Counted from the first letter of the stretch, positions 125 through 4,314 are shown. The stretch: 4,971 nucleotides of DNA from a virus (IMGVR_UViG_2600254997_000016:1-4971); one strand, 5' to 3'. Numbers and translations: made by a program. Notes: a model not told the origin generated them from the sequence alone.

Positions 125-1174
125 ATGCTTAATACTGTAAAAATATCCAGTTGTGAGTTAGTCAACGCCGACTGCCTGGAATTTATCCGGTCGTTACCCG
201 AAAATTCTGTTGACCTGATAGTCACGGACCCGCCGTACTTTAAAGTGAAGCCCGAGGGCTGGGATAACCAGTGGAAGGGCGACGATGATTACCTGAAGTG
301 GCAGGACCAGTGTCTGGCGCAGTTCTGGCGGGTGCTGAAACCTGCCGGAAGTCTTTACCTGTTCTGTGGCCATCGCCTGGCATCTGACATTGAAATCATG
401 ATGCGTGAACGCTTCAGTGTGCTGAACCATATTATCTGGGCGAAGCCGTCCGGACGCTGGAACGGATGCAACAAGGAAAGCCTGCGGGCGTATTTCCCCG
501 CCACAGAGCGCATTCTGTTCGCGGAACATTATCAGGGGCCGTATCGTCCGAAAGATGCCGGGTATGAGGCGAAGGGCAGGGCACTGAAACAGCATGTGAT
601 GGCCCCGCTGATTGCTTACTTTCGTGATGCGCGCGCTGCCCTGGGGATAACGGCAAAACAGATTGCAGATGCCACAGGAAAGAAAAACATGGTGCCGCAC
701 TGGTTCAGTGCCAGTCAGTGGCAGCTACCGAACGAAAGCGATTATCTGAAATTACAGTCGCTGTTTGCCCGGGTGGCAGAAGAGAAACATCAGCGCGGGG
801 AACTGGAAAAGCCACACCACCAGCTGGTCAGCACATACAGTGAGCTGAACCGGCAGTATATGGAACTGCTGAGTGAATATAAAAATTTGCGGCGGTATTT
901 CGGTGTGACGGTGCAGGTGCCGTACACCGATGTGTGGACGTATAAACCGGTGCAGTACTATCCAGGGAAACATCCGTGCGAAAAACCGGCAGAAATGCTG
1001 CAGCAGATAATCAGCGCAAGTAGTCGTCCTGGTGATCTGGTTGCGGATTTTTTCATGGGGTCGGGTTCAACGGTAAAAGCGGCGATGGCACTGGGGCGTC
1101 GTGCGATTGGTGTTGAGCTGGAGACCGGACGTTTTGAGCAGACAGTCAGGGAAGTTCAGGATTTAATCGTTTGA
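125..1174 (+). CDS. Orphan DNA methyltransferase, beta-class N6-adenine/N4-cytosine family (probably N6-adenine)
   Basis: 349-aa ORF. Motif IV DPPY at aa 35-38 (nt 227-238, in VDLIVTDPPYF) lies near the N-terminus and AdoMet-binding motif I FMGSGST at aa 310-316 (nt ~1052-1072) near the C-terminus, which is the permuted beta-class order (as in M.RsrI-type enzymes). The ~150 aa between them would be the target-recognition region. No endonuclease partner in the window. The only in-frame start is ATG 125, directly after a TGA at 119-121; there is no strong SD. Confidence 0.88.
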   Translation: MLNTVKISSCELVNADCLEFIRSLPENSVDLIVTDPPYFKVKPEGWDNQWKGDDDYLKWQDQCLAQFWRVLKPAGSLYLFCGHRLASDIEIMMRERFSVLNHIIWAKPSGRWNGCNKESLRAYFPATERILFAEHYQGPYRPKDAGYEAKGRALKQHVMAPLIAYFRDARAALGITAKQIADATGKKNMVPHWFSASQWQLPNESDYLKLQSLFARVAEEKHQRGELEKPHHQLVSTYSELNRQYMELLSEYKNLRRYFGVTVQVPYTDVWTYKPVQYYPGKHPCEKPAEMLQQIISASSRPGDLVADFFMGSGSTVKAAMALGRRAIGVELETGRFEQTVREVQDLIV

Positions 1175-1223
1175 AACGGATGAGATTGCAGTATTAATTC
1201 CGTAACGTTATTATTCTGCGCGC

Positions 1224-1299
1224 GGCCCTTTAGCTCAGTGGTGAGAGCGAGCGACTCATAATCGCCAGGTCGCTGGTTCAAATCCAGCAAGGGCCACCA
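1224..1299 (+). tRNA. ileZ: tRNA-Ile (anticodon CAU, lysidine type, reads AUA)
   Basis: 76-nt cloverleaf read by hand: acceptor GGCCCTT (1224-1230) pairs with AAGGGCC (1289-1295); D-arm GCTC/GAGC; anticodon loop CTCATAA with CAT at 1257-1259; T-arm GCTGG-TTCAAAT-CCAGC; discriminator A and encoded CCA at 1297-1299. Very similar to E. coli ileX-type tRNA-Ile2. The symbol follows the ileZ-argN-argO cluster of Stx/lambdoid phages. tRNA-Met cannot be strictly excluded from sequence alone. Confidence 0.85.
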
Positions 1300-1308
1300 T
1301 ATCACATA

Positions 1309-1385
1309 CCGCCATTAGCTCATCGGGATAGAGCGCCAGCCTTCGAAGCTGGTTGCGCGGGGTTAGAGTCCTCGATGGCGGTCCA
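1309..1385 (+). tRNA. argN: tRNA-Arg (anticodon UCG), with atypical T-loop
   Basis: 77-nt cloverleaf: acceptor CCGCCAT (1309-1315) pairs perfectly with ATGGCGG (1375-1381); D-arm GCTC/GAGC with GG in the loop; anticodon stem CCAGC/GCTGG with loop CTTCGAA, anticodon TCG at 1343-1345; T-stem CGGGG/CCTCG (one G-U); T-loop TTAGAGT has A where the near-universal C56 is expected; CCA at 1383-1385. Symbol by positional analogy only. Confidence 0.7.
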
Positions 1386-1398
1386 TTATCTGTACCCT

Positions 1399-1475
1399 GC
1401 GTTGTTAGCTCAGCCGGACAGAGCAATTGCCTTCTAAGCAATCGGTCACTGGTTCGAATCCAGTACAACGCGCCA
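1399..1475 (+). tRNA. argO: tRNA-Arg (anticodon UCU, reads AGA/AGG)
   Basis: 77-nt cloverleaf: acceptor GCGTTGT (1399-1405) pairs with ACAACGC (1465-1471); D-arm GCTC/GAGC; anticodon stem ATTGC/GCAAT with loop CTTCTAA, anticodon TCT at 1433-1435; canonical T-arm ACTGG-TTCGAAT-CCAGT; discriminator G and CCA at 1473-1475. Symbol by positional analogy. Confidence 0.85.
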
Positions 1476-1486
1476 GACTTATTTTT

Positions 1487-1514
1487 CCCGGCTCGCTTTT
1501 GCGGGCCTTTTTTT
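1487..1514 (+). terminator. Rho-independent terminator after the tRNA cluster
   Basis: Stem GGCTCGC (1490-1496), loop TTTT, stem GCGGGCC (1501-1507), 7 bp with one G-U, followed directly by T7 (1508-1514). It begins 12 nt after the CCA of the last tRNA. Confidence 0.7.
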
Positions 1515-1741
1515 AAATGTCTCACAATTCAGACGGTTGACAGTTGTCTGTTTTGCGGGGAGTTTGTTAAAAGAAACTGGCATGGTGAATCCCCCTGTGC
1601 GGAGGGGCAATCAGCGAGTAGGTATATGGGATAATCGCGGATTCAGGTGCTGGTACTGAATTCACCGGGAGGCACCCGGCACCATGCAATGGCACATAGC
1701 GCCACTCTCCAGCCCCTCTCCGGAGGGGCTTTCTTATGGAC

Positions 1742-1770
1742 AAAAAAAGCCCGCGCTGGGAGACGCGGGC
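1742..1770 (-). terminator. Putative rho-independent terminator oriented for the minus strand
   Basis: Perfect 7-bp GC-rich stem GCCCGCG (1749-1755) / CGCGGGC (1764-1770) with an 8-nt loop, preceded on the + strand by A7 (1742-1748), which is a U7 tail on the minus-strand transcript. No T-tract follows on the + strand. Confidence 0.5.
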
Positions 1771-1963
1771 GGCAAGGAATAAACAACAAAACGTGAAGTA
1801 ATATTTCAGCTGGCGAATAATATCCGACAGTAATCACTCTGCGCAATAGCGCGGCCTTTTTCGTATTGCGGGCTGTTGTCTCTCTTCTGCCATTGTCCTG
1901 TAACTTCCGGACTTCAGCCCGCTCCTCATTTTACTCACAATATTATCCCGGCCGGGAGGATTC

Positions 1964-2743
1964 ATGGCATTTAAACACTATGATGTTGTCAGGGCGGCGT
2001 CGCCGTCAGACCTTGCGGAAAAGCTGACACACAAACTGAAAGAGGGCTGGCAGCCATATGGCGGACCGGTTGCCATTACGCCGTACACACTGATGCAGGC
2101 GGTGGCTATTGAAGGAGATCCACAGGTCGGCCCTTCATCTGAGCCGGACTGGTTCTACGTGGTTGTGCTTGCCGGACAGTCCAACGGCATGGCCTACGGT
2201 GAAGGGCTTCCGTTACCGGATTCTTACGATGCTCCGGATCCGCGCATTAAACAGCTGGCGCGCCGCAGCACGGTAACTCCGGGTGGAGAGAGTTGTACGT
2301 ATAACGACATCATCCCGGCTGACCATTGTCTGCATGATGTTCAGGATATGAGTACGATTAACCATCCCCGGGCTGACCTGAGCAAAGGGCAGTACGGCTG
2401 TGTCGGACAGGGCTTACATATTGCCAAAAAACTGCTTCCGTATATCCCTAATAATGCGGGGATCCTGCTGGTACCATGCTGTCGTGGTGGTTCGGCATTC
2501 ACCCAGGGCACGGAGGGGACATTCAGCGAGTCCACGGGGGCCAGTCAGGATTCGGCTCGCTGGGGAGTGGGTAAGCCGTTATATCAGGATCTGCTTTTTC
2601 CGCACGAAGGCAGCATAGCAGAAAAACCCGAAAAACGTTTTGCTGGCGATATGCTGGATGCAGGGGGAATTCGATATGACGAATGCCAGTTACGCCCAGC
2701 AGCCAGCAGCATTTCTTGCAATGGTACAGCAGTTCCGTGCTGA
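1964..2743 (+). CDS. nanS-p: nanS-p-like prophage 9-O-acetyl-sialate esterase, N-terminal fragment (DUF1737-like N-terminus plus start of SASA/SGNH esterase domain); frame interrupted
   Basis: 259-aa ORF with SD GGGAGG (1954-1959) 4 nt before ATG 1964. The N-terminus MAFKHYDVVRAASPSDLAEKL resembles the DUF1737 start of prophage NanS-p esterases. The catalytic-serine motif GQSN is at aa 71-74 (nt 2174-2185). The frame stops at TGA 2741-2743, overlapping the next ORF, so this is one gene broken by a frameshift (see findings). Confidence 0.75.
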   Translation: MAFKHYDVVRAASPSDLAEKLTHKLKEGWQPYGGPVAITPYTLMQAVAIEGDPQVGPSSEPDWFYVVVLAGQSNGMAYGEGLPLPDSYDAPDPRIKQLARRSTVTPGGESCTYNDIIPADHCLHDVQDMSTINHPRADLSKGQYGCVGQGLHIAKKLLPYIPNNAGILLVPCCRGGSAFTQGTEGTFSESTGASQDSARWGVGKPLYQDLLFPHEGSIAEKPEKRFAGDMLDAGGIRYDECQLRPAASSISCNGTAVPC

Positions 2744-3797
2744 CTTTGCCGGGCTGGCGGCGCAGTGTCACGGTGGAAGTCCGGCATCAGTCCCCTGGAT
2801 TTGCGGCGACACGACATACGCGTGGAAACAAGAACACGGTACGCAATATGAAGTGGTATATGGTGCATATAAAGGTAAAGAATCCCAGCAGATTTATTTT
2901 GTTCCCTTTATGACCGATGGTAGCGGAGTTAATACACCGACAAACAACCCGTCAGAAGATCCTGATATTGCCGGGTCTGGTTATTACGGTTCGGCATCCC
3001 GAACGAACAAAAACTGGGTATCATCAAATCGCCCGACGCATTTCAGCTCATGGGCGCGTCGTGGCATTATTCCCGATCGTATGGCAACTGCTATTCTGAA
3101 CGTAGCCGGTCGCACCTTAGCCTTCATTAGTGGTAAGGCACCGGAAATCAAACCCTCGCCCGGCGGCGACACGCCATCGGGGCCGTCTGAAGATGCATCC
3201 GTACGCACAATCTCCCTGTTGCCGACAGCCGGAGATGCTGCTGCGCAGGGCTGGAGCATTAAGAATGGCGGAATTCAGTTGTCAGATGGTGTATTTAAGA
3301 TCACCAAGCAGAGCAATAAAACCTGGTCCCTGATGCATCCGGTGGATGACGCAATTACCCTGCTGACACAGGGCGGCAGACTGACCTGTAAGTTCCGCCT
3401 CTCAGGCGCACTGACCAACAATCAGTTCGGGCTGGGGATTTATCTGTATACGGACGCTCCCGTTCCTGATGATGTGGCGATGACGGGTACTGGTAATCCG
3501 TTCCTGATGTCTTACTTCACTCAGACCACTGACGGCAGAGTGAATCTGATGCATCACAGGAAAGCCGGAAACACGAAGCTGGGGGAGTTCGGCGATTACG
3601 GTAACGACTGGCAGACGCTGGAGCTGGTGTTCACCGCCGGCAGTGCCACGGTTACTCCGAAACTGAATGGAGTGGCTGGCCCGGCATTCCAGGTTATAAA
3701 AGACAGTCTGACACTGGGACTGAATGCGCTGACGCTGACGGATGTTACAAAAAATGCAGCGTATGGCGTTGAGATAGAAAGTCTGGTGCTGGAGTAA
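2640..3797 (+). CDS. nanS-p: nanS-p-like esterase, C-terminal fragment (rest of SASA domain plus C-terminal domain); not an independent gene
   Basis: 385-aa ORF in the frame one position ahead of 1964-2743 (positions 0 vs 2 mod 3). It is open from just after TAG 2616-2618; the track start at 2640 is a TTG, not a credible initiation site. It contains WMQGEFD (nt ~2655-2675), matching the SASA-family QGE(S)D block expected downstream of GQSN. Stop TAA 3795-3797. Confidence 0.7.
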   Translation: MLAICWMQGEFDMTNASYAQQPAAFLAMVQQFRADFAGLAAQCHGGSPASVPWICGDTTYAWKQEHGTQYEVVYGAYKGKESQQIYFVPFMTDGSGVNTPTNNPSEDPDIAGSGYYGSASRTNKNWVSSNRPTHFSSWARRGIIPDRMATAILNVAGRTLAFISGKAPEIKPSPGGDTPSGPSEDASVRTISLLPTAGDAAAQGWSIKNGGIQLSDGVFKITKQSNKTWSLMHPVDDAITLLTQGGRLTCKFRLSGALTNNQFGLGIYLYTDAPVPDDVAMTGTGNPFLMSYFTQTTDGRVNLMHHRKAGNTKLGEFGDYGNDWQTLELVFTAGSATVTPKLNGVAGPAFQVIKDSLTLGLNALTLTDVTKNAAYGVEIESLVLE

Positions 3798-3813: not shown

Positions 3814-3850
3814 ATAAAAAAAGCCAGCGCCCACTCTGAAGGACGCTGGC
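3814..3850 (-). terminator. Putative minus-strand-oriented terminator-like hairpin just 3' of nanS-p
   Basis: Stem GCCAGCG (3823-3829) / CGCTGGC (3844-3850) with a 14-nt loop, preceded on the + strand by A7 (3816-3822), which is a U-tract on the minus strand. Only AAAAC follows on the + strand. The long loop lowers confidence. Confidence 0.4.
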
Positions 3851-4026
3851 TAAAACGGGTAGATGTACTTCACATGATACTTATACTTGGCAGTACATTT
3901 TCTGACAGACAGTGACGGATGTTGTCAAGATATTGTGTCATTTATAACCTGAATCAGGGGTTGGCCGGAATGTTATCTGGCATTTTTAGCAGAGCCTGAA
4001 TGCCATAATCACGGCTCTCGGCGTTG

Positions 4027-4063
4027 GCCGTCAGTGGGTGACACTGGCGGCTTTTTTGTTTTT
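4027..4063 (+). terminator. Strong rho-independent terminator immediately upstream of the lysis cassette (tR'-like position)
   Basis: 10-bp stem GCCGTCAGTG (4027-4036) / CACTGGCGGC (4042-4051) with one G-U, loop GGTGA, followed by TTTTTTGTTTTT (4052-4063). It ends ~45 nt before the S start codon. Confidence 0.75.
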
Positions 4064-4107
4064 CTTTACTTTCATTTTCTGTCGGCGGTGACGGAGACAT
4101 ACATCAG

Positions 4108-4314
4108 ATGGAAAAAATCACAACAGGTGTGTCATACACCACGTCAGCGGTGGGGACGGGATACTGGTTACTGCAGCTGCTGGACAAAGTCTCTCCGTCC
4201 CAGTGGGTGGCAATAGGTGTGCTGGGGAGTCTGCTGTTTGGCCTGCTGACGTATCTGACAAACCTTTATTTCAAGATTAAAGAAGATAAGCGCAAGGCTG
4301 CGAGAGGTGAATAA
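4108..4314 (+). CDS. S: Holin S, phage-21-type pinholin (S21-68-like)
   Basis: 68-aa ORF with SD GGAG (4093-4096) 11 nt before ATG 4108. Two predicted transmembrane segments ([18 protein letters not shown] and [23 protein letters not shown]) and a charged C-terminus [13 protein letters not shown]. Closely resembles the phage 21 pinholin as I recall it. The stop TAA 4312-4314 overlaps the R start as TAATG. Confidence 0.9.

What the first reader, a model, noticed from the sequence alone, without database searches (positions are those of the whole stretch)
1476..1963. Empty toxin/moron site: hairpin-rich ~490-bp non-coding interval where Stx phages carry stxAB
The order methyltransferase, ileZ-argN-argO-like tRNAs, then nanS-p, S, R, Rz matches the late region of Stx-converting lambdoid phages, where stxA/stxB sit between the tRNA genes and nanS-p. 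Here that slot holds no ORF above ~30 codons with a plausible start, only a series of stem-loops: a + strand terminator at 1487-1514; GCCCCTC/GAGGGGC at 1712-1729 followed by TTTCTT; a minus-oriented hairpin at 1749-1770; and CTGCGC-AATA-GCGCGG at 1839-1854 followed by CCTTTTT. This looks like a stx-negative relative with an unoccupied or deleted cargo site, and the structured RNA could act as a processed leader or small RNA between the tRNAs and nanS-p.
Basis: partly seen in the sequence, partly recalled or inferred. Interest (0 to 1): 0.45.

Follow-up and report, generated by a model that had tools for sequence, protein, structure and literature searches.

The report
Known prophage sRNAs at stx slot
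The stretch between the phage tRNA genes and nanS-p is not empty: it carries two already-described, Hfq-bound prophage small-RNA genes facing each other, and the place where Shiga-toxin phages hold stx2AB is only a 4-base junction at its left edge.

Summary
The four hairpins and the gene order are real. The interval is not an empty cargo slot.

- **stx2 junction.** In Stx2 phages the 1335-bp stx2AB cassette sits exactly between window 1513 and 1518. Window 1518-1963 is kept downstream of stxB in those phages.
- **Plus-strand sRNA.** Window 1551-1741 (+) is a full-length STnc100 sRNA (Rfam RF02076, 139 bits against a cut-off of 47). Window 1612-1720 is 100% identical to the Hfq-crosslinked peak of EcOnc05 in the stx-negative Sakai prophage Sp4. 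STnc100 is related to EcOnc27 and PasD.
- **Minus-strand sRNA.** The minus-oriented hairpin (1770-1749) ends a convergent minus-strand sRNA. It is about 99% identical to EcOnc08/21/42 of Sakai and to the EPEC RIL-seq sRNA E2348C_1409.E2348C_1408.IGR, whose partners include cfa, dppA and tir.
- **Other two hairpins.** Hairpin 1490-1507 terminates the tRNA cluster. Hairpin 1839-1854 is the conserved plus-strand terminator that PasD uses.

This layout, convergent sRNAs at the moron site downstream of Q/PR', was described by Tree et al. 2014. "Empty site" holds only for 1514-1517. The locus is already known, so interest is low. The STnc100 5' end (about 1518 or 1580) and its targets remain unresolved.

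The parts
1224..1475 (+). ileZ-argN-argO-type tRNA cluster (context; left border of the interval)
   Evidence: ARAGORN and Rfam tRNA hits. RefSeq annotates the same cluster as tRNA-Ile/Arg/Arg in L001 and in Sakai Sp4 and Sp5.
1490..1514 (+). Intrinsic terminator behind the tRNA cluster (stem 1490-1507 plus T7)
   Evidence: Terminator scan. Conserved directly behind argO in stx-negative prophages (Sp4, L001) and in Stx2 phages (Sp5, Stx2_14040), where it lies upstream of stx2A.
1514..1517 (.). Cargo (moron) junction. The 1335-bp stx2AB cassette of Stx2 phages sits exactly here; the site is empty in this window.
   Evidence: blastn breakpoints: window 1151-1513 and 1518-2071 against L003 and L007; junction sequences. 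EPEC PP5 carries about 630 bp of other cargo (a DUF3927 ORF) between window 1488 and 1510. The distance from argO to STnc100 in 95 contexts falls into classes of about 100, 350, 550, 700, 850 and 1400 nt.
1518..1579 (+). Conserved upstream block of the STnc100 gene. It is either the 5' part of a ~222-nt long form or the promoter region, with a sigma70-like promoter: -35 TTGTCT 1544-1549, 17-nt spacer, -10 TTAAAA 1567-1572 with TG at 1565-1566.
   Evidence: Conserved downstream of stx2B and stx1B. The promoter geometry is the same in the window, Sp4, Sp5, the Stx1 phage and the PasD loci, placing +1 at G1580, which is the published PasD 5' end. The Sakai EcOnc27 CRAC peak includes the equivalent block. 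The ~222-nt Northern size of EcOnc05 implies a 5' end near 1515-1520.
1551..1741 (+). STnc100-family sRNA gene (equals EcOnc05 of Sakai Sp4). Core RNA 1580-1738; conserved multibranch 5' domain 1580-1687; variable 3' tail 1688-1710; terminator 1711-1730 followed by UUUCUU.
   Evidence: Rfam RF02076 at 139.2 bits (GA 47), E 1e-31, model positions 1-206 of 206. The MFE fold reproduces the Rfam architecture, z = -2.58. Window 1612-1720 is 100% identical to the EcOnc05 Hfq-CRAC peak. Compensatory changes occur in 4 of 27 pairs across 41 variants.
1742..1923 (-). Convergent minus-strand Hfq-associated sRNA (EcOnc08/21/42 of Sakai Sp4, equal to EPEC 'E2348C_1409.E2348C_1408.IGR'). Terminator stem 1770-1749 plus U7 at 1748-1742. 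Seed CCUUGCC is the complement of 1771-1777. The 5' end is uncertain: 1923 by the EPEC estimate, about 1935 from the promoter-like site, about 2012 from the 271-nt Northern.
   Evidence: One mismatch to the 182-nt EPEC RNA. The Tree et al. Northern probe matches window 1816-1850 exactly. EcOnc08 and EcOnc21 peaks map to window 1744-1816 and 1822-1907. The RIL-seq target motif GGCAAGG is complementary to the seed. A minus-strand promoter-like site, ATGCCA-17-GATAAT, lies at 1970-1942.
1839..1861 (+). Second plus-strand terminator-like hairpin (CTGCGC-AATA-GCGCGG, then CCTTTTT). It resembles the terminator used by PasD1/PasD2 and lies antisense within the minus-strand RNA.
   Evidence: Terminator scan. 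Nearly invariant in all six aligned stx-positive and stx-negative loci. It resembles the PasD 3' end GGCTGCGCATTGCGCAGCCTTTTTTTT. STnc100 5' domains fused to this terminator occur in 11 of 95 contexts.
1862..1963 (+). Highly conserved nanS-p leader, including stem 1869-1876/1916-1923 and the Shine-Dalgarno sequence GGGAGGA at 1954-1960 ahead of ATG 1964. The same DNA encodes the 5' part of the minus-strand RNA.
   Evidence: Almost every column is invariant in alignment A1. Centroid fold. DUF1737/SASA ORF starts at 1964.

Best explanation
The interval is the 'moron-site' small-RNA module of a stx-negative lambdoid (Stx-phage-like) prophage late region. From left to right it holds the following.
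1. An intrinsic terminator that ends the ileZ-argN-argO tRNA unit (1490-1514).
2. A 4-nt junction (1514-1517). This is the point where Stx2 phages carry stx2AB and other prophages carry other cargo. It is empty here.
3. A plus-strand STnc100-family sRNA gene (equal to EcOnc05, related to EcOnc27/sRNA103 and PasD). It has a sigma70-like promoter, a conserved multibranch 5' domain closed by GCAUGGUG/CACCAUGC, a variable single-stranded 3' tail and its own terminator (1711-1730).
4. A convergent minus-strand sRNA (EcOnc08/21/42 type). It ends at the back-to-back terminator 1770-1749. Its exposed CCUUGCC seed pairs with GGCAAGG sites in mRNAs such as the cfa and dppA 5'UTRs and tir.
5. A second plus-strand terminator (1839-1854) and the conserved nanS-p leader.

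**Shown here.** Sequence and structure identity with RNAs that others detected by Hfq-CRAC, RIL-seq and Northern blot, and the exact stx2 breakpoints.

**Inferred.**
- In a lysogen both sRNAs are made from their own promoters and act in trans through Hfq on host and virulence mRNAs.
- The three plus-strand terminators keep lysogenic transcription (from the tRNA, cargo or sRNA promoters) out of nanS-p and the lysis genes.
- Q-modified polymerase from PR' reads through these terminators after induction.
For: **STnc100 identity**
- Full-length STnc100 hit at 139.2 bits against a gathering score of 47.
- The MFE fold matches the Rfam consensus.
- Across 41 variants of the 5' domain, 4 pairs show compensatory changes. 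One pair switches GC to AU in 16 sequences.
- Window 1612-1720 is identical (109 of 109 nt) to the EcOnc05 Hfq-CRAC peak of Sakai Sp4. That RNA gave a ~222-nt Northern band in Table S2 of PMC4104026.
- Sp4 has the same 489-bp interval at 97% identity and no stx.

**Minus-strand RNA**
- One mismatch to the 182-nt EPEC RIL-seq sRNA.
- Exact match of the published EcOnc08/21/42 Northern probe at 1816-1850.
- The seed and target motif are complementary. Partners: cfa 5'UTR 767 chimeras, dppA 5'UTR 197, pcm 118, tir 29.

**Same convergent layout in Stx2 phage Sp5**
- STnc100 lies at 3923-4128 (+) and AsxR at 4130-4182 (-) of L007, downstream of stx2B.
- Tree et al. describe exactly this arrangement for Sp3, 4, 5, 9, 10, 11, 15 and 17.

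**Breakpoints and cargo slot**
- Breakpoints.
- Other cargo occupies the slot in EPEC PP5.
- The distance from argO to STnc100 falls into discrete classes.

**Promoter**
- The -35, 17-nt spacer, -10, N7, +1 G geometry is conserved in eight loci, and +1 equals the PasD 5' end.
- The HUS-associated variants at +90 and +103 after stx2B (PMC12711010) map into this -10/discriminator region by my indexing.

**Prevalence**
- 2867 of 5426 complete E. coli genomes match the interval.
Against: - No expression data exist for this particular sequence. Everything rests on identity or near-identity with RNAs detected in Sakai, EDL933 and E2348/69.
- The 5' end of the plus-strand RNA is unresolved. The promoter-like site and the PasD end give +1 at 1580 (about 159 nt). 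The Northern sizes (~222 nt for EcOnc05, 235/247 nt for EcOnc27) and the EcOnc27 CRAC peak imply a 5' end near 1518. The DNA upstream of 1518 is not conserved between stx-positive and stx-negative phages. The long form may therefore be processed from read-through transcripts rather than made from its own promoter.
- The simple promoter scan did not report the plus-strand promoter. Its -35 matches only 4 of 6 positions and its -10 is TTAAAA.
- Length estimates for the minus-strand RNA disagree (182, about 194 and about 271 nt).
- No target or phenotype is established for the window's STnc100 3' tail. The only functional report is for the Sp5 variant (sRNA103 overexpression raised fimZ and espA transcripts, cited in PMC12711010), and that variant has a different tail.
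- The insulating role of the terminators is inference.
Confidence: 0.87

Rival explanations
1. One reading: the ~490 bp are an unoccupied or deleted cargo slot that holds only stem-loops (terminators or a processed leader) and no genes of its own.
For: - No credible ORF lies in the interval.
- stx is absent and the synteny with Stx phages is real.
- There are four terminator-like hairpins.
Against: - Window 1518-1963 is retained downstream of stxB in Stx1 and Stx2 phages, so it is not the slot.
- The interval contains a full-length Rfam sRNA.
- It also contains a near-identical copy of a second RNA that was detected experimentally.
- The empty junction is only 4 nt long.
Confidence: 0.05
2. 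The plus-strand element acts mainly in cis on the late transcript rather than as a trans-acting sRNA. It would be a 3'UTR- or leader-derived processing product whose near-invariant 5' domain and stacked terminators control read-through, processing or stability of the PR' transcript entering nanS-p and S-R-Rz.
For: - The Northern sizes and the EcOnc27 CRAC peak put the 5' end at the start of the conserved block (about 1518), where the upstream DNA differs between phages. This fits processing from tRNA or stx read-through transcripts.
- The 5' domain is far more conserved in sequence than pairing alone would require.
- Three plus-strand terminators lie between the tRNAs and nanS-p.
Against: - The RNA accumulates as a discrete Hfq-bound species in uninduced lysogens (PMC4104026; PMC5331693).
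- Its relative PasD makes many trans RIL-seq contacts through its 3' tail (PMC8550237).
- A promoter-like site with conserved geometry sits directly upstream of the PasD-type 5' end.
- In some prophages STnc100 or PasD sits directly before the holin gene with no nanS-p (L006, L009).
Confidence: 0.12
3. The interval encodes a small protein. Candidates are the minus-strand ORF that RefSeq annotates as a (pseudo) 'hypothetical protein' antisense to STnc100, or a short ORF inside STnc100.
For: - RefSeq lists a partial 'hypothetical protein' pseudogene at the position equivalent to window 1571-1696 (-).
- Longer antisense ORFs are annotated in Sp3, EPEC PP4 and the Stx1 phage.
- Some EDL933 STnc100 copies had ribosome-footprint to RNA ratios above 1 (PMC5331693).
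Against: - The window ORFs start with TTG or GTG, or lack a Shine-Dalgarno sequence.
- None hits Pfam.
- RefSeq itself flags the ORF as incomplete.
- The ORFs are broken or differ in length among close relatives, while the RNA structure is kept.
- Most EDL933 copies had low ribosome coverage.
Confidence: 0.03

Closest known systems
STnc100 (Rfam RF02076); EHEC copies EcOnc05 (Sp4) and EcOnc27/sRNA103 (Sp5, downstream of stx2B)
   Same: - Full-length covariance-model match.
- Same multibranch fold and terminator.
- Same place, between the cargo slot and a convergent sRNA.
- 109 of 109 nt identical to the EcOnc05 Hfq-CRAC peak.
   Different: - Compared with the Sp5 copy (EcOnc27), the window copy has a shorter central hairpin region (191 nt against 206 nt) and a different 3' tail.
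- Any target set reported for sRNA103 therefore need not apply.
PasD1/PasD2 of EPEC E2348/69 (Pearl Mizrahi 2021; Zhu, Shabalina & Storz 2026 preprint)
   Same: - Homologous 5' domain starting GCAUGGUGAAUCC.
- Same promoter geometry.
- Same position upstream of the esterase or holin genes.
- The PasD terminator resembles the window hairpin at 1839-1854.
   Different: - The window RNA ends at its own terminator (1711-1730).
- It lacks the PasD 3' tail with the UGUGAG seed.
- The PasD loci do not reach the STnc100 gathering score.
EcOnc08/EcOnc21/EcOnc42 (Sakai Sp4, Tree 2014), equal to E2348C_1409.E2348C_1408.IGR (EPEC PP6 RIL-seq sRNA)
   Same: - About 99% identity over 182 nt.
- Exact probe match.
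- Same CCUUGCC seed and terminator.
- Same convergent position.
   Different: - One base differs in the terminator loop.
- The published length estimates differ (182 nt against about 271 nt).
- There is no Rfam family for this RNA.
AsxR / AgvB / EcOnc03 anti-sRNAs (Rfam RF02703, RF02702)
   Same: - Same position and orientation: convergent with STnc100, back-to-back terminators, downstream of the moron slot.
- Hfq-bound prophage sRNAs.
   Different: - The conserved ~42-nt 3' region (GUAUCUCAUGC..UUGCCCGAACCCAYUCGGGC) is absent.
- The Rfam models do not match even at E <= 10.
- The EPEC homolog pairs with mRNAs, not with GcvB or FnrS.
stx2 locus of Stx2a phages (Sakai Sp5; Stx2_14040)
   Same: - Both have ileZ-argN-argO, the tRNA terminator, then STnc100, a convergent sRNA and nanS-p. 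Stx2_14040 also has Q and the methylase; in Sp5 only Q is annotated upstream, with no methylase listed.
- The flanks are 74-93% identical to the window.
   Different: - The 1335-bp stx2AB cassette between window 1513 and 1518 is absent here, with no remnant.

Membership tests
STnc100 (RF02076) | Covariance-model score at or above the curated gathering score over the whole model | tested here: met
   139.2 bits against GA 47, E 1e-31, model positions 1-206 of 206, window 1551-1741 (+).
STnc100 (RF02076) | Multibranch 5' domain closed by GCAUGGUG/CACCAUGC, with internal hairpins and a 3' intrinsic terminator | tested here: met
   The MFE and centroid folds of 1580-1738 reproduce this architecture. 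RNAalifold on 41 variants predicts 27 pairs, 4 of them with compensatory changes. Two of the hairpins never vary and are therefore uninformative.
STnc100 (RF02076) | Lambdoid prophage late-region context, downstream of Q | tested here: met
   Q is not in the window. It lies upstream of the same methylase-tRNA block in L001 (99.5% identical over window 1151-2100) and in Sp4.
STnc100 (RF02076) | Expressed as a discrete Hfq-associated RNA | not testable with these tools
   Only by proxy. The identical 109-nt stretch is the EcOnc05 CRAC peak, with a ~222-nt Northern band. One EDL933 copy was Northern-positive.
PasD | 3' tail carrying the UGUGAG seed, ending at the GGCUGCGCAUUGCGCAGCC terminator | tested here: not met
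   After the closing helix the window has AAUGGCACAUAGCGCCACUCUCCAG and its own terminator. The seed is absent.
PasD | Homologous 5' domain and promoter | tested here: met
   GCATGGTGAATCC starts at 1580, with the same -35/-10 spacing.
EcOnc08/21/42 = E2348C_1409.E2348C_1408.IGR | Sequence identity with the detected RNA, including the CCUUGCC seed and the terminator | tested here: met
   One mismatch over the overlap with the 182-nt EPEC RNA. The Northern probe matches exactly at 1816-1850. The seed is the complement of 1771-1777.
AsxR/AgvB anti-sRNAs (RF02703/RF02702) | Covariance-model match and the conserved ~42-nt 3' region | tested here: not met
   No hit at E <= 10 in 1476-1990, whereas AsxR scores 88 bits in Sp5. 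The 3' sequences differ.
AsxR/AgvB anti-sRNAs (RF02703/RF02702) | Position: convergent with STnc100 just downstream of the moron slot | tested here: met
   The window has STnc100 ending at 1741 (+) against a minus-strand 3' end at 1742. Sp5 has 4128 against 4130.
Unoccupied stx site of a Stx-phage-like prophage | Both stx flanks present and adjacent, with no stx sequence | tested here: met
   Flanks are window 1151-1513 and 1518-2071 against Sp5 and Stx2_14040. Only chance-level matches to the stx1 and stx2 cassettes.

The most novel reading that the evidence does not exclude
The near-invariant 5' domain of STnc100/PasD (1580-1687) may be a protein-binding scaffold rather than mere structure. 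Phage recombination would then swap 3' 'seed plus terminator' cassettes onto it, giving a natural modular guide-RNA system.

**Basis**
- The loci fetched here show 46 variants of the 5' domain.
- Three distinct 3' tail classes were counted, plus at least four further tail sequences visible by eye.
- GGA triplets sit at the apex of three hairpins: GCGGAGG, CCGGGAGGC and UCCGGAGG.
- PasD2 forms the most abundant CsrA-bound RNA pair in EPEC, about 20% of chimeric reads (bioRxiv 10.64898/2026.08.12.744399).

The partner could be CsrA, by analogy with PasE, or another protein.
Probability: 0.2. Interest if true: 0.55.

Novelty: already known. Interest (0 to 1): 0.15.

Why it matters
For annotation, this stretch should be labelled as two sRNA genes plus terminators. 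It should not be labelled 'hypothetical protein' (as in RefSeq) or as an empty intergenic region.

For biology, the window adds little. The convergent sRNA pair at the PR' moron site has been described, and more than half of complete E. coli genomes carry matching sequence.

Two modest results may be useful.
- The stx2 cassette junction is pinned to 4 nt, between the tRNA terminator and the STnc100 block. This makes a clean marker for separating empty from occupied sites.
- The HUS-associated variants reported downstream of stx2B map onto the putative -10/discriminator of the STnc100 promoter. This is a testable lead for why they matter.

Tried and rejected
- **Rfam AsxR, AgvB and Esr41 for the minus-strand element.** No hit even at E <= 10 on the 515-nt stretch. 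Only sub-threshold terminator look-alikes appeared (OmrA-B, anti-hemB, ftsZ-DE, SgrS), and I dismissed them as chance.
- **PasE (the CsrA-guide sRNA).** Checked and found to lie at an unrelated locus, the E2348C_0271 5'UTR.
- **Protein coding in the interval.** Five ORFs had no Pfam hit.
- **Mapping the Northern-verified EDL933 copy STnc100_4.** This failed because NC_002655 and CP008957 are not in the collections.
- **The TTGACA at 1537-1542 as the -35 of the sRNA promoter.** Rejected, because it lies 25 nt from the only -10-like hexamer. TTGTCT at 1544-1549 fits the 17-nt spacing that is conserved in eight loci.
- **The published 'EcOnc13' probe.** It maps to the Stx1-phage sequence upstream of GCATGG, not to the Sp3 PasD homolog. 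I did not use it to argue about 5' ends.
- **Identifying the source genome.** No complete E. coli genome is identical to the window. The best matches are mosaics at about 95% identity.
- **Insertion against deletion of stx.** Only a weak 7-nt similarity (ATATCTG / TAATCTG) at the cassette ends. Not decisive.

Full report
**Observation**

The window is a lambdoid late region. Its genes, in order:
- An N6/N4 DNA methylase at 125-1174.
- Three tRNAs at 1224-1475, of the ileZ/argN/argO type.
- A 488-bp gap.
- A DUF1737/SASA + DUF6645 esterase (nanS-p), split by a frameshift.
- A P21-type holin, a lysozyme and the start of Rz.

The scan found five terminator-like sites, against 1.1 +/- 1.1 in shuffles. 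The interval folds better than its shuffles (z = -2.97). ORFs of 32-67 codons exist on both strands, but they have poor starts and no Pfam match.

**What the plus strand holds**

A scan of the window against Rfam gives a full-length hit to STnc100 (RF02076) at 1551-1741 (+). The score is 139.2 bits against a gathering score of 47, with E 1e-31.

The MFE fold of 1580-1738 reproduces the family architecture (z = -2.58):
- A closing helix GCAUGGUG/CACCAUGC.
- Internal hairpins.
- A short single-stranded tail.
- The terminator at 1711-1730.

I took 41 distinct variants of the 5' domain, drawn from IMG/VR contigs and the fetched prophages. RNAalifold predicts 27 pairs, of which 4 carry compensatory changes. 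One pair switches GC to AU in 16 sequences. Two hairpins are invariant and so say nothing either way.

The literature places this RNA precisely.
- STnc100 has 11 copies in EDL933, and one was Northern-positive (PMC5331693).
- It lies 75 nt downstream of stx2B in Stx2 phages (PMC12370729).
- There it overlaps the Hfq-bound EcOnc27/sRNA103 (PMC12711010).
- In Sakai prophage Sp4 the Hfq-CRAC peak EcOnc05 (Northern ~222 nt; Table S2 of PMC4104026) is 109 of 109 nt identical to window 1612-1720.

PasD1 and PasD2 of EPEC share the 5' domain but carry another 3' tail (seed UGUGAG) and another terminator. Zhu, Shabalina and Storz already proposed common ancestry of PasD and STnc100.

**What the minus strand holds**

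The 'minus-oriented hairpin' is the terminator of a convergent RNA.
- Window 1742-1923 (-) differs by one base from the 182-nt EPEC RIL-seq sRNA candidate E2348C_1409.E2348C_1408.IGR.
- The published Northern probe for its EHEC homologs EcOnc08/21/42 (Sp4, ~271 nt) matches window 1816-1850 exactly.
- The CRAC peaks map to window 1744-1816 and 1822-1907.
- The EPEC RNA forms Hfq chimeras with the cfa 5'UTR (767), the dppA 5'UTR (197), pcm, perA, tir and espC.
- Its target motif GGCAAGG is complementary to CCUUGCC, the complement of window 1771-1777. This seed sits just 5' of the terminator.

This RNA is not a member of the AsxR/AgvB family. Those Rfam models do not match even at E <= 10, and the conserved 42-nt 3' region is absent. 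It does occupy the same position. In Sp5, STnc100 (3923-4128 +) and AsxR (4130-4182 -) abut in the same way.

Tree et al. 2014 describe exactly this layout. They report convergent sRNA genes at the moron insertion site downstream of PR' in Sp3, 4, 5, 9, 10, 11, 15 and 17.

**Where stx would be**

In Sakai Sp5 and in Stx2a phage Stx2_14040:
- Window 1151-1513, which includes the tRNA terminator, matches the DNA upstream of stx2A.
- Window 1518-2071 matches the DNA downstream of stx2B.
- The 1335-bp cassette therefore lies between window 1513 and 1518.

Stx1 phages share the block from about 1512 or 1580 onward, downstream of stx1B. The window holds no stx remnant.

The same junction takes other cargo.
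- EPEC PP5 has about 630 bp with a DUF3927 ORF there. It also has iraM in place of window 1731-1962.
- Among 95 distinct STnc100 contexts, the distance from argO to STnc100 falls into classes of about 100 nt (empty, as here), 350, 550, 700, 850 and 1400 nt (stx2).

The 'empty toxin site' is therefore real, but it is 4 nt long. The remaining 446 bp are a conserved sRNA module that Stx phages also carry.

**The other two hairpins**

- 1490-1507 plus T7 follows argO in both stx-positive and stx-negative phages. It is the terminator of the tRNA unit.
- 1839-1854 plus CCTTTTT is nearly invariant across all aligned loci. It resembles the terminator that PasD uses. In 11 of 95 contexts an STnc100-type 5' domain is joined to a tail that ends at this terminator.

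**Mechanism, and what is inferred**

Identity with RNAs detected by others, the structure and the breakpoints are shown here. The rest is inferred.

*A sigma70-like promoter.* Its elements are -35 TTGTCT at 1544-1549, a 17-nt spacer, -10 TTAAAA at 1567-1572 preceded by TG, and seven more bases to +1 at G1580. This geometry is conserved in eight loci. The +1 coincides with the PasD 5' end.

*The HUS-associated variants.* The variants at +90 and +103 after stx2B fall in this -10/discriminator region by my indexing.

*Conflicting evidence on the 5' end.* The Northern sizes (222 nt and 235/247 nt) and the EcOnc27 CRAC peak imply a longer form beginning near 1518. The upstream DNA there is not conserved, so that form may be processed from read-through transcripts. 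I leave the 5' end open.

*Insulation of the late genes.* The three plus-strand terminators plausibly keep lysogenic transcription out of nanS-p and the lysis genes, and Q-modified polymerase would read through them. This follows from general lambdoid biology and was not tested.

**Verdict**

The locus is already known in all its parts, with near-identical copies detected experimentally, and it occurs in more than half of complete E. coli genomes. Interest is low.

Noticed in passing
window 3816-3893 (-): A 100% identical copy of the EPEC sRNA PasC (78 of 78 nt). It lies between nanS-p and the holin gene on the minus strand, with its terminator at 3851-3822. The published PasC probe matches 3844-3868 exactly.
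   Followed up: yes
window ~2594 (nanS-p ORFs 1964-2743 and 2640-3797): [quoted passage not shown] This is either a pseudogene or a sequencing error.
   Followed up: partly
window 3964-3981 (+) and 4026-4052 (+): Two more plus-strand terminator-like hairpins lie just upstream of the holin gene S. The second has 11 pairs followed by TTTTTGTTTT. They could be a further sRNA 3' end or another late-operon insulator. No Rfam hit.
   Followed up: no
L005 (EPEC E2348/69 PP6) 578-2151, equivalent to window 1595-1602: An ISEc13 element is inserted inside the STnc100 5' domain, with window 1595-1602 present on both sides (8-bp overlap in the blastn pieces). The convergent minus-strand sRNA next to it is still expressed according to the RIL-seq data.
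   Followed up: partly
L130 (EPEC PP5) 1502-2128 and 2350-2979: The same backbone carries different cargo at both junctions. A ~630-bp insert with a DUF3927 ORF sits where stx2 would be. iraM (anti-adapter protein) on the minus strand replaces the convergent sRNA module.
   Followed up: partly
IMG/VR loci L010-L129: The conserved STnc100 5' domain is joined to at least seven unrelated 3' tails and terminators. Several contigs carry two copies 230-480 bp apart. This points to cassette-like exchange of the tail that, in PasD, carries the seed.
   Followed up: partly
window 1186-1214 (+): A possible promoter for the tRNA cluster, seen by eye: TTGCAG, 17 nt, TATTAT, about 9 nt before the first tRNA. 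The consensus scan did not report it.
   Followed up: no
window 1624-1632 (+): TATGGGATA, listed as a putative Shine-Dalgarno for one EDL933 STnc100 copy with high ribosome coverage (PMC5331693), is present here. It contains a Met-Gly-stop mini-ORF (ATGGGATAA).
   Followed up: no
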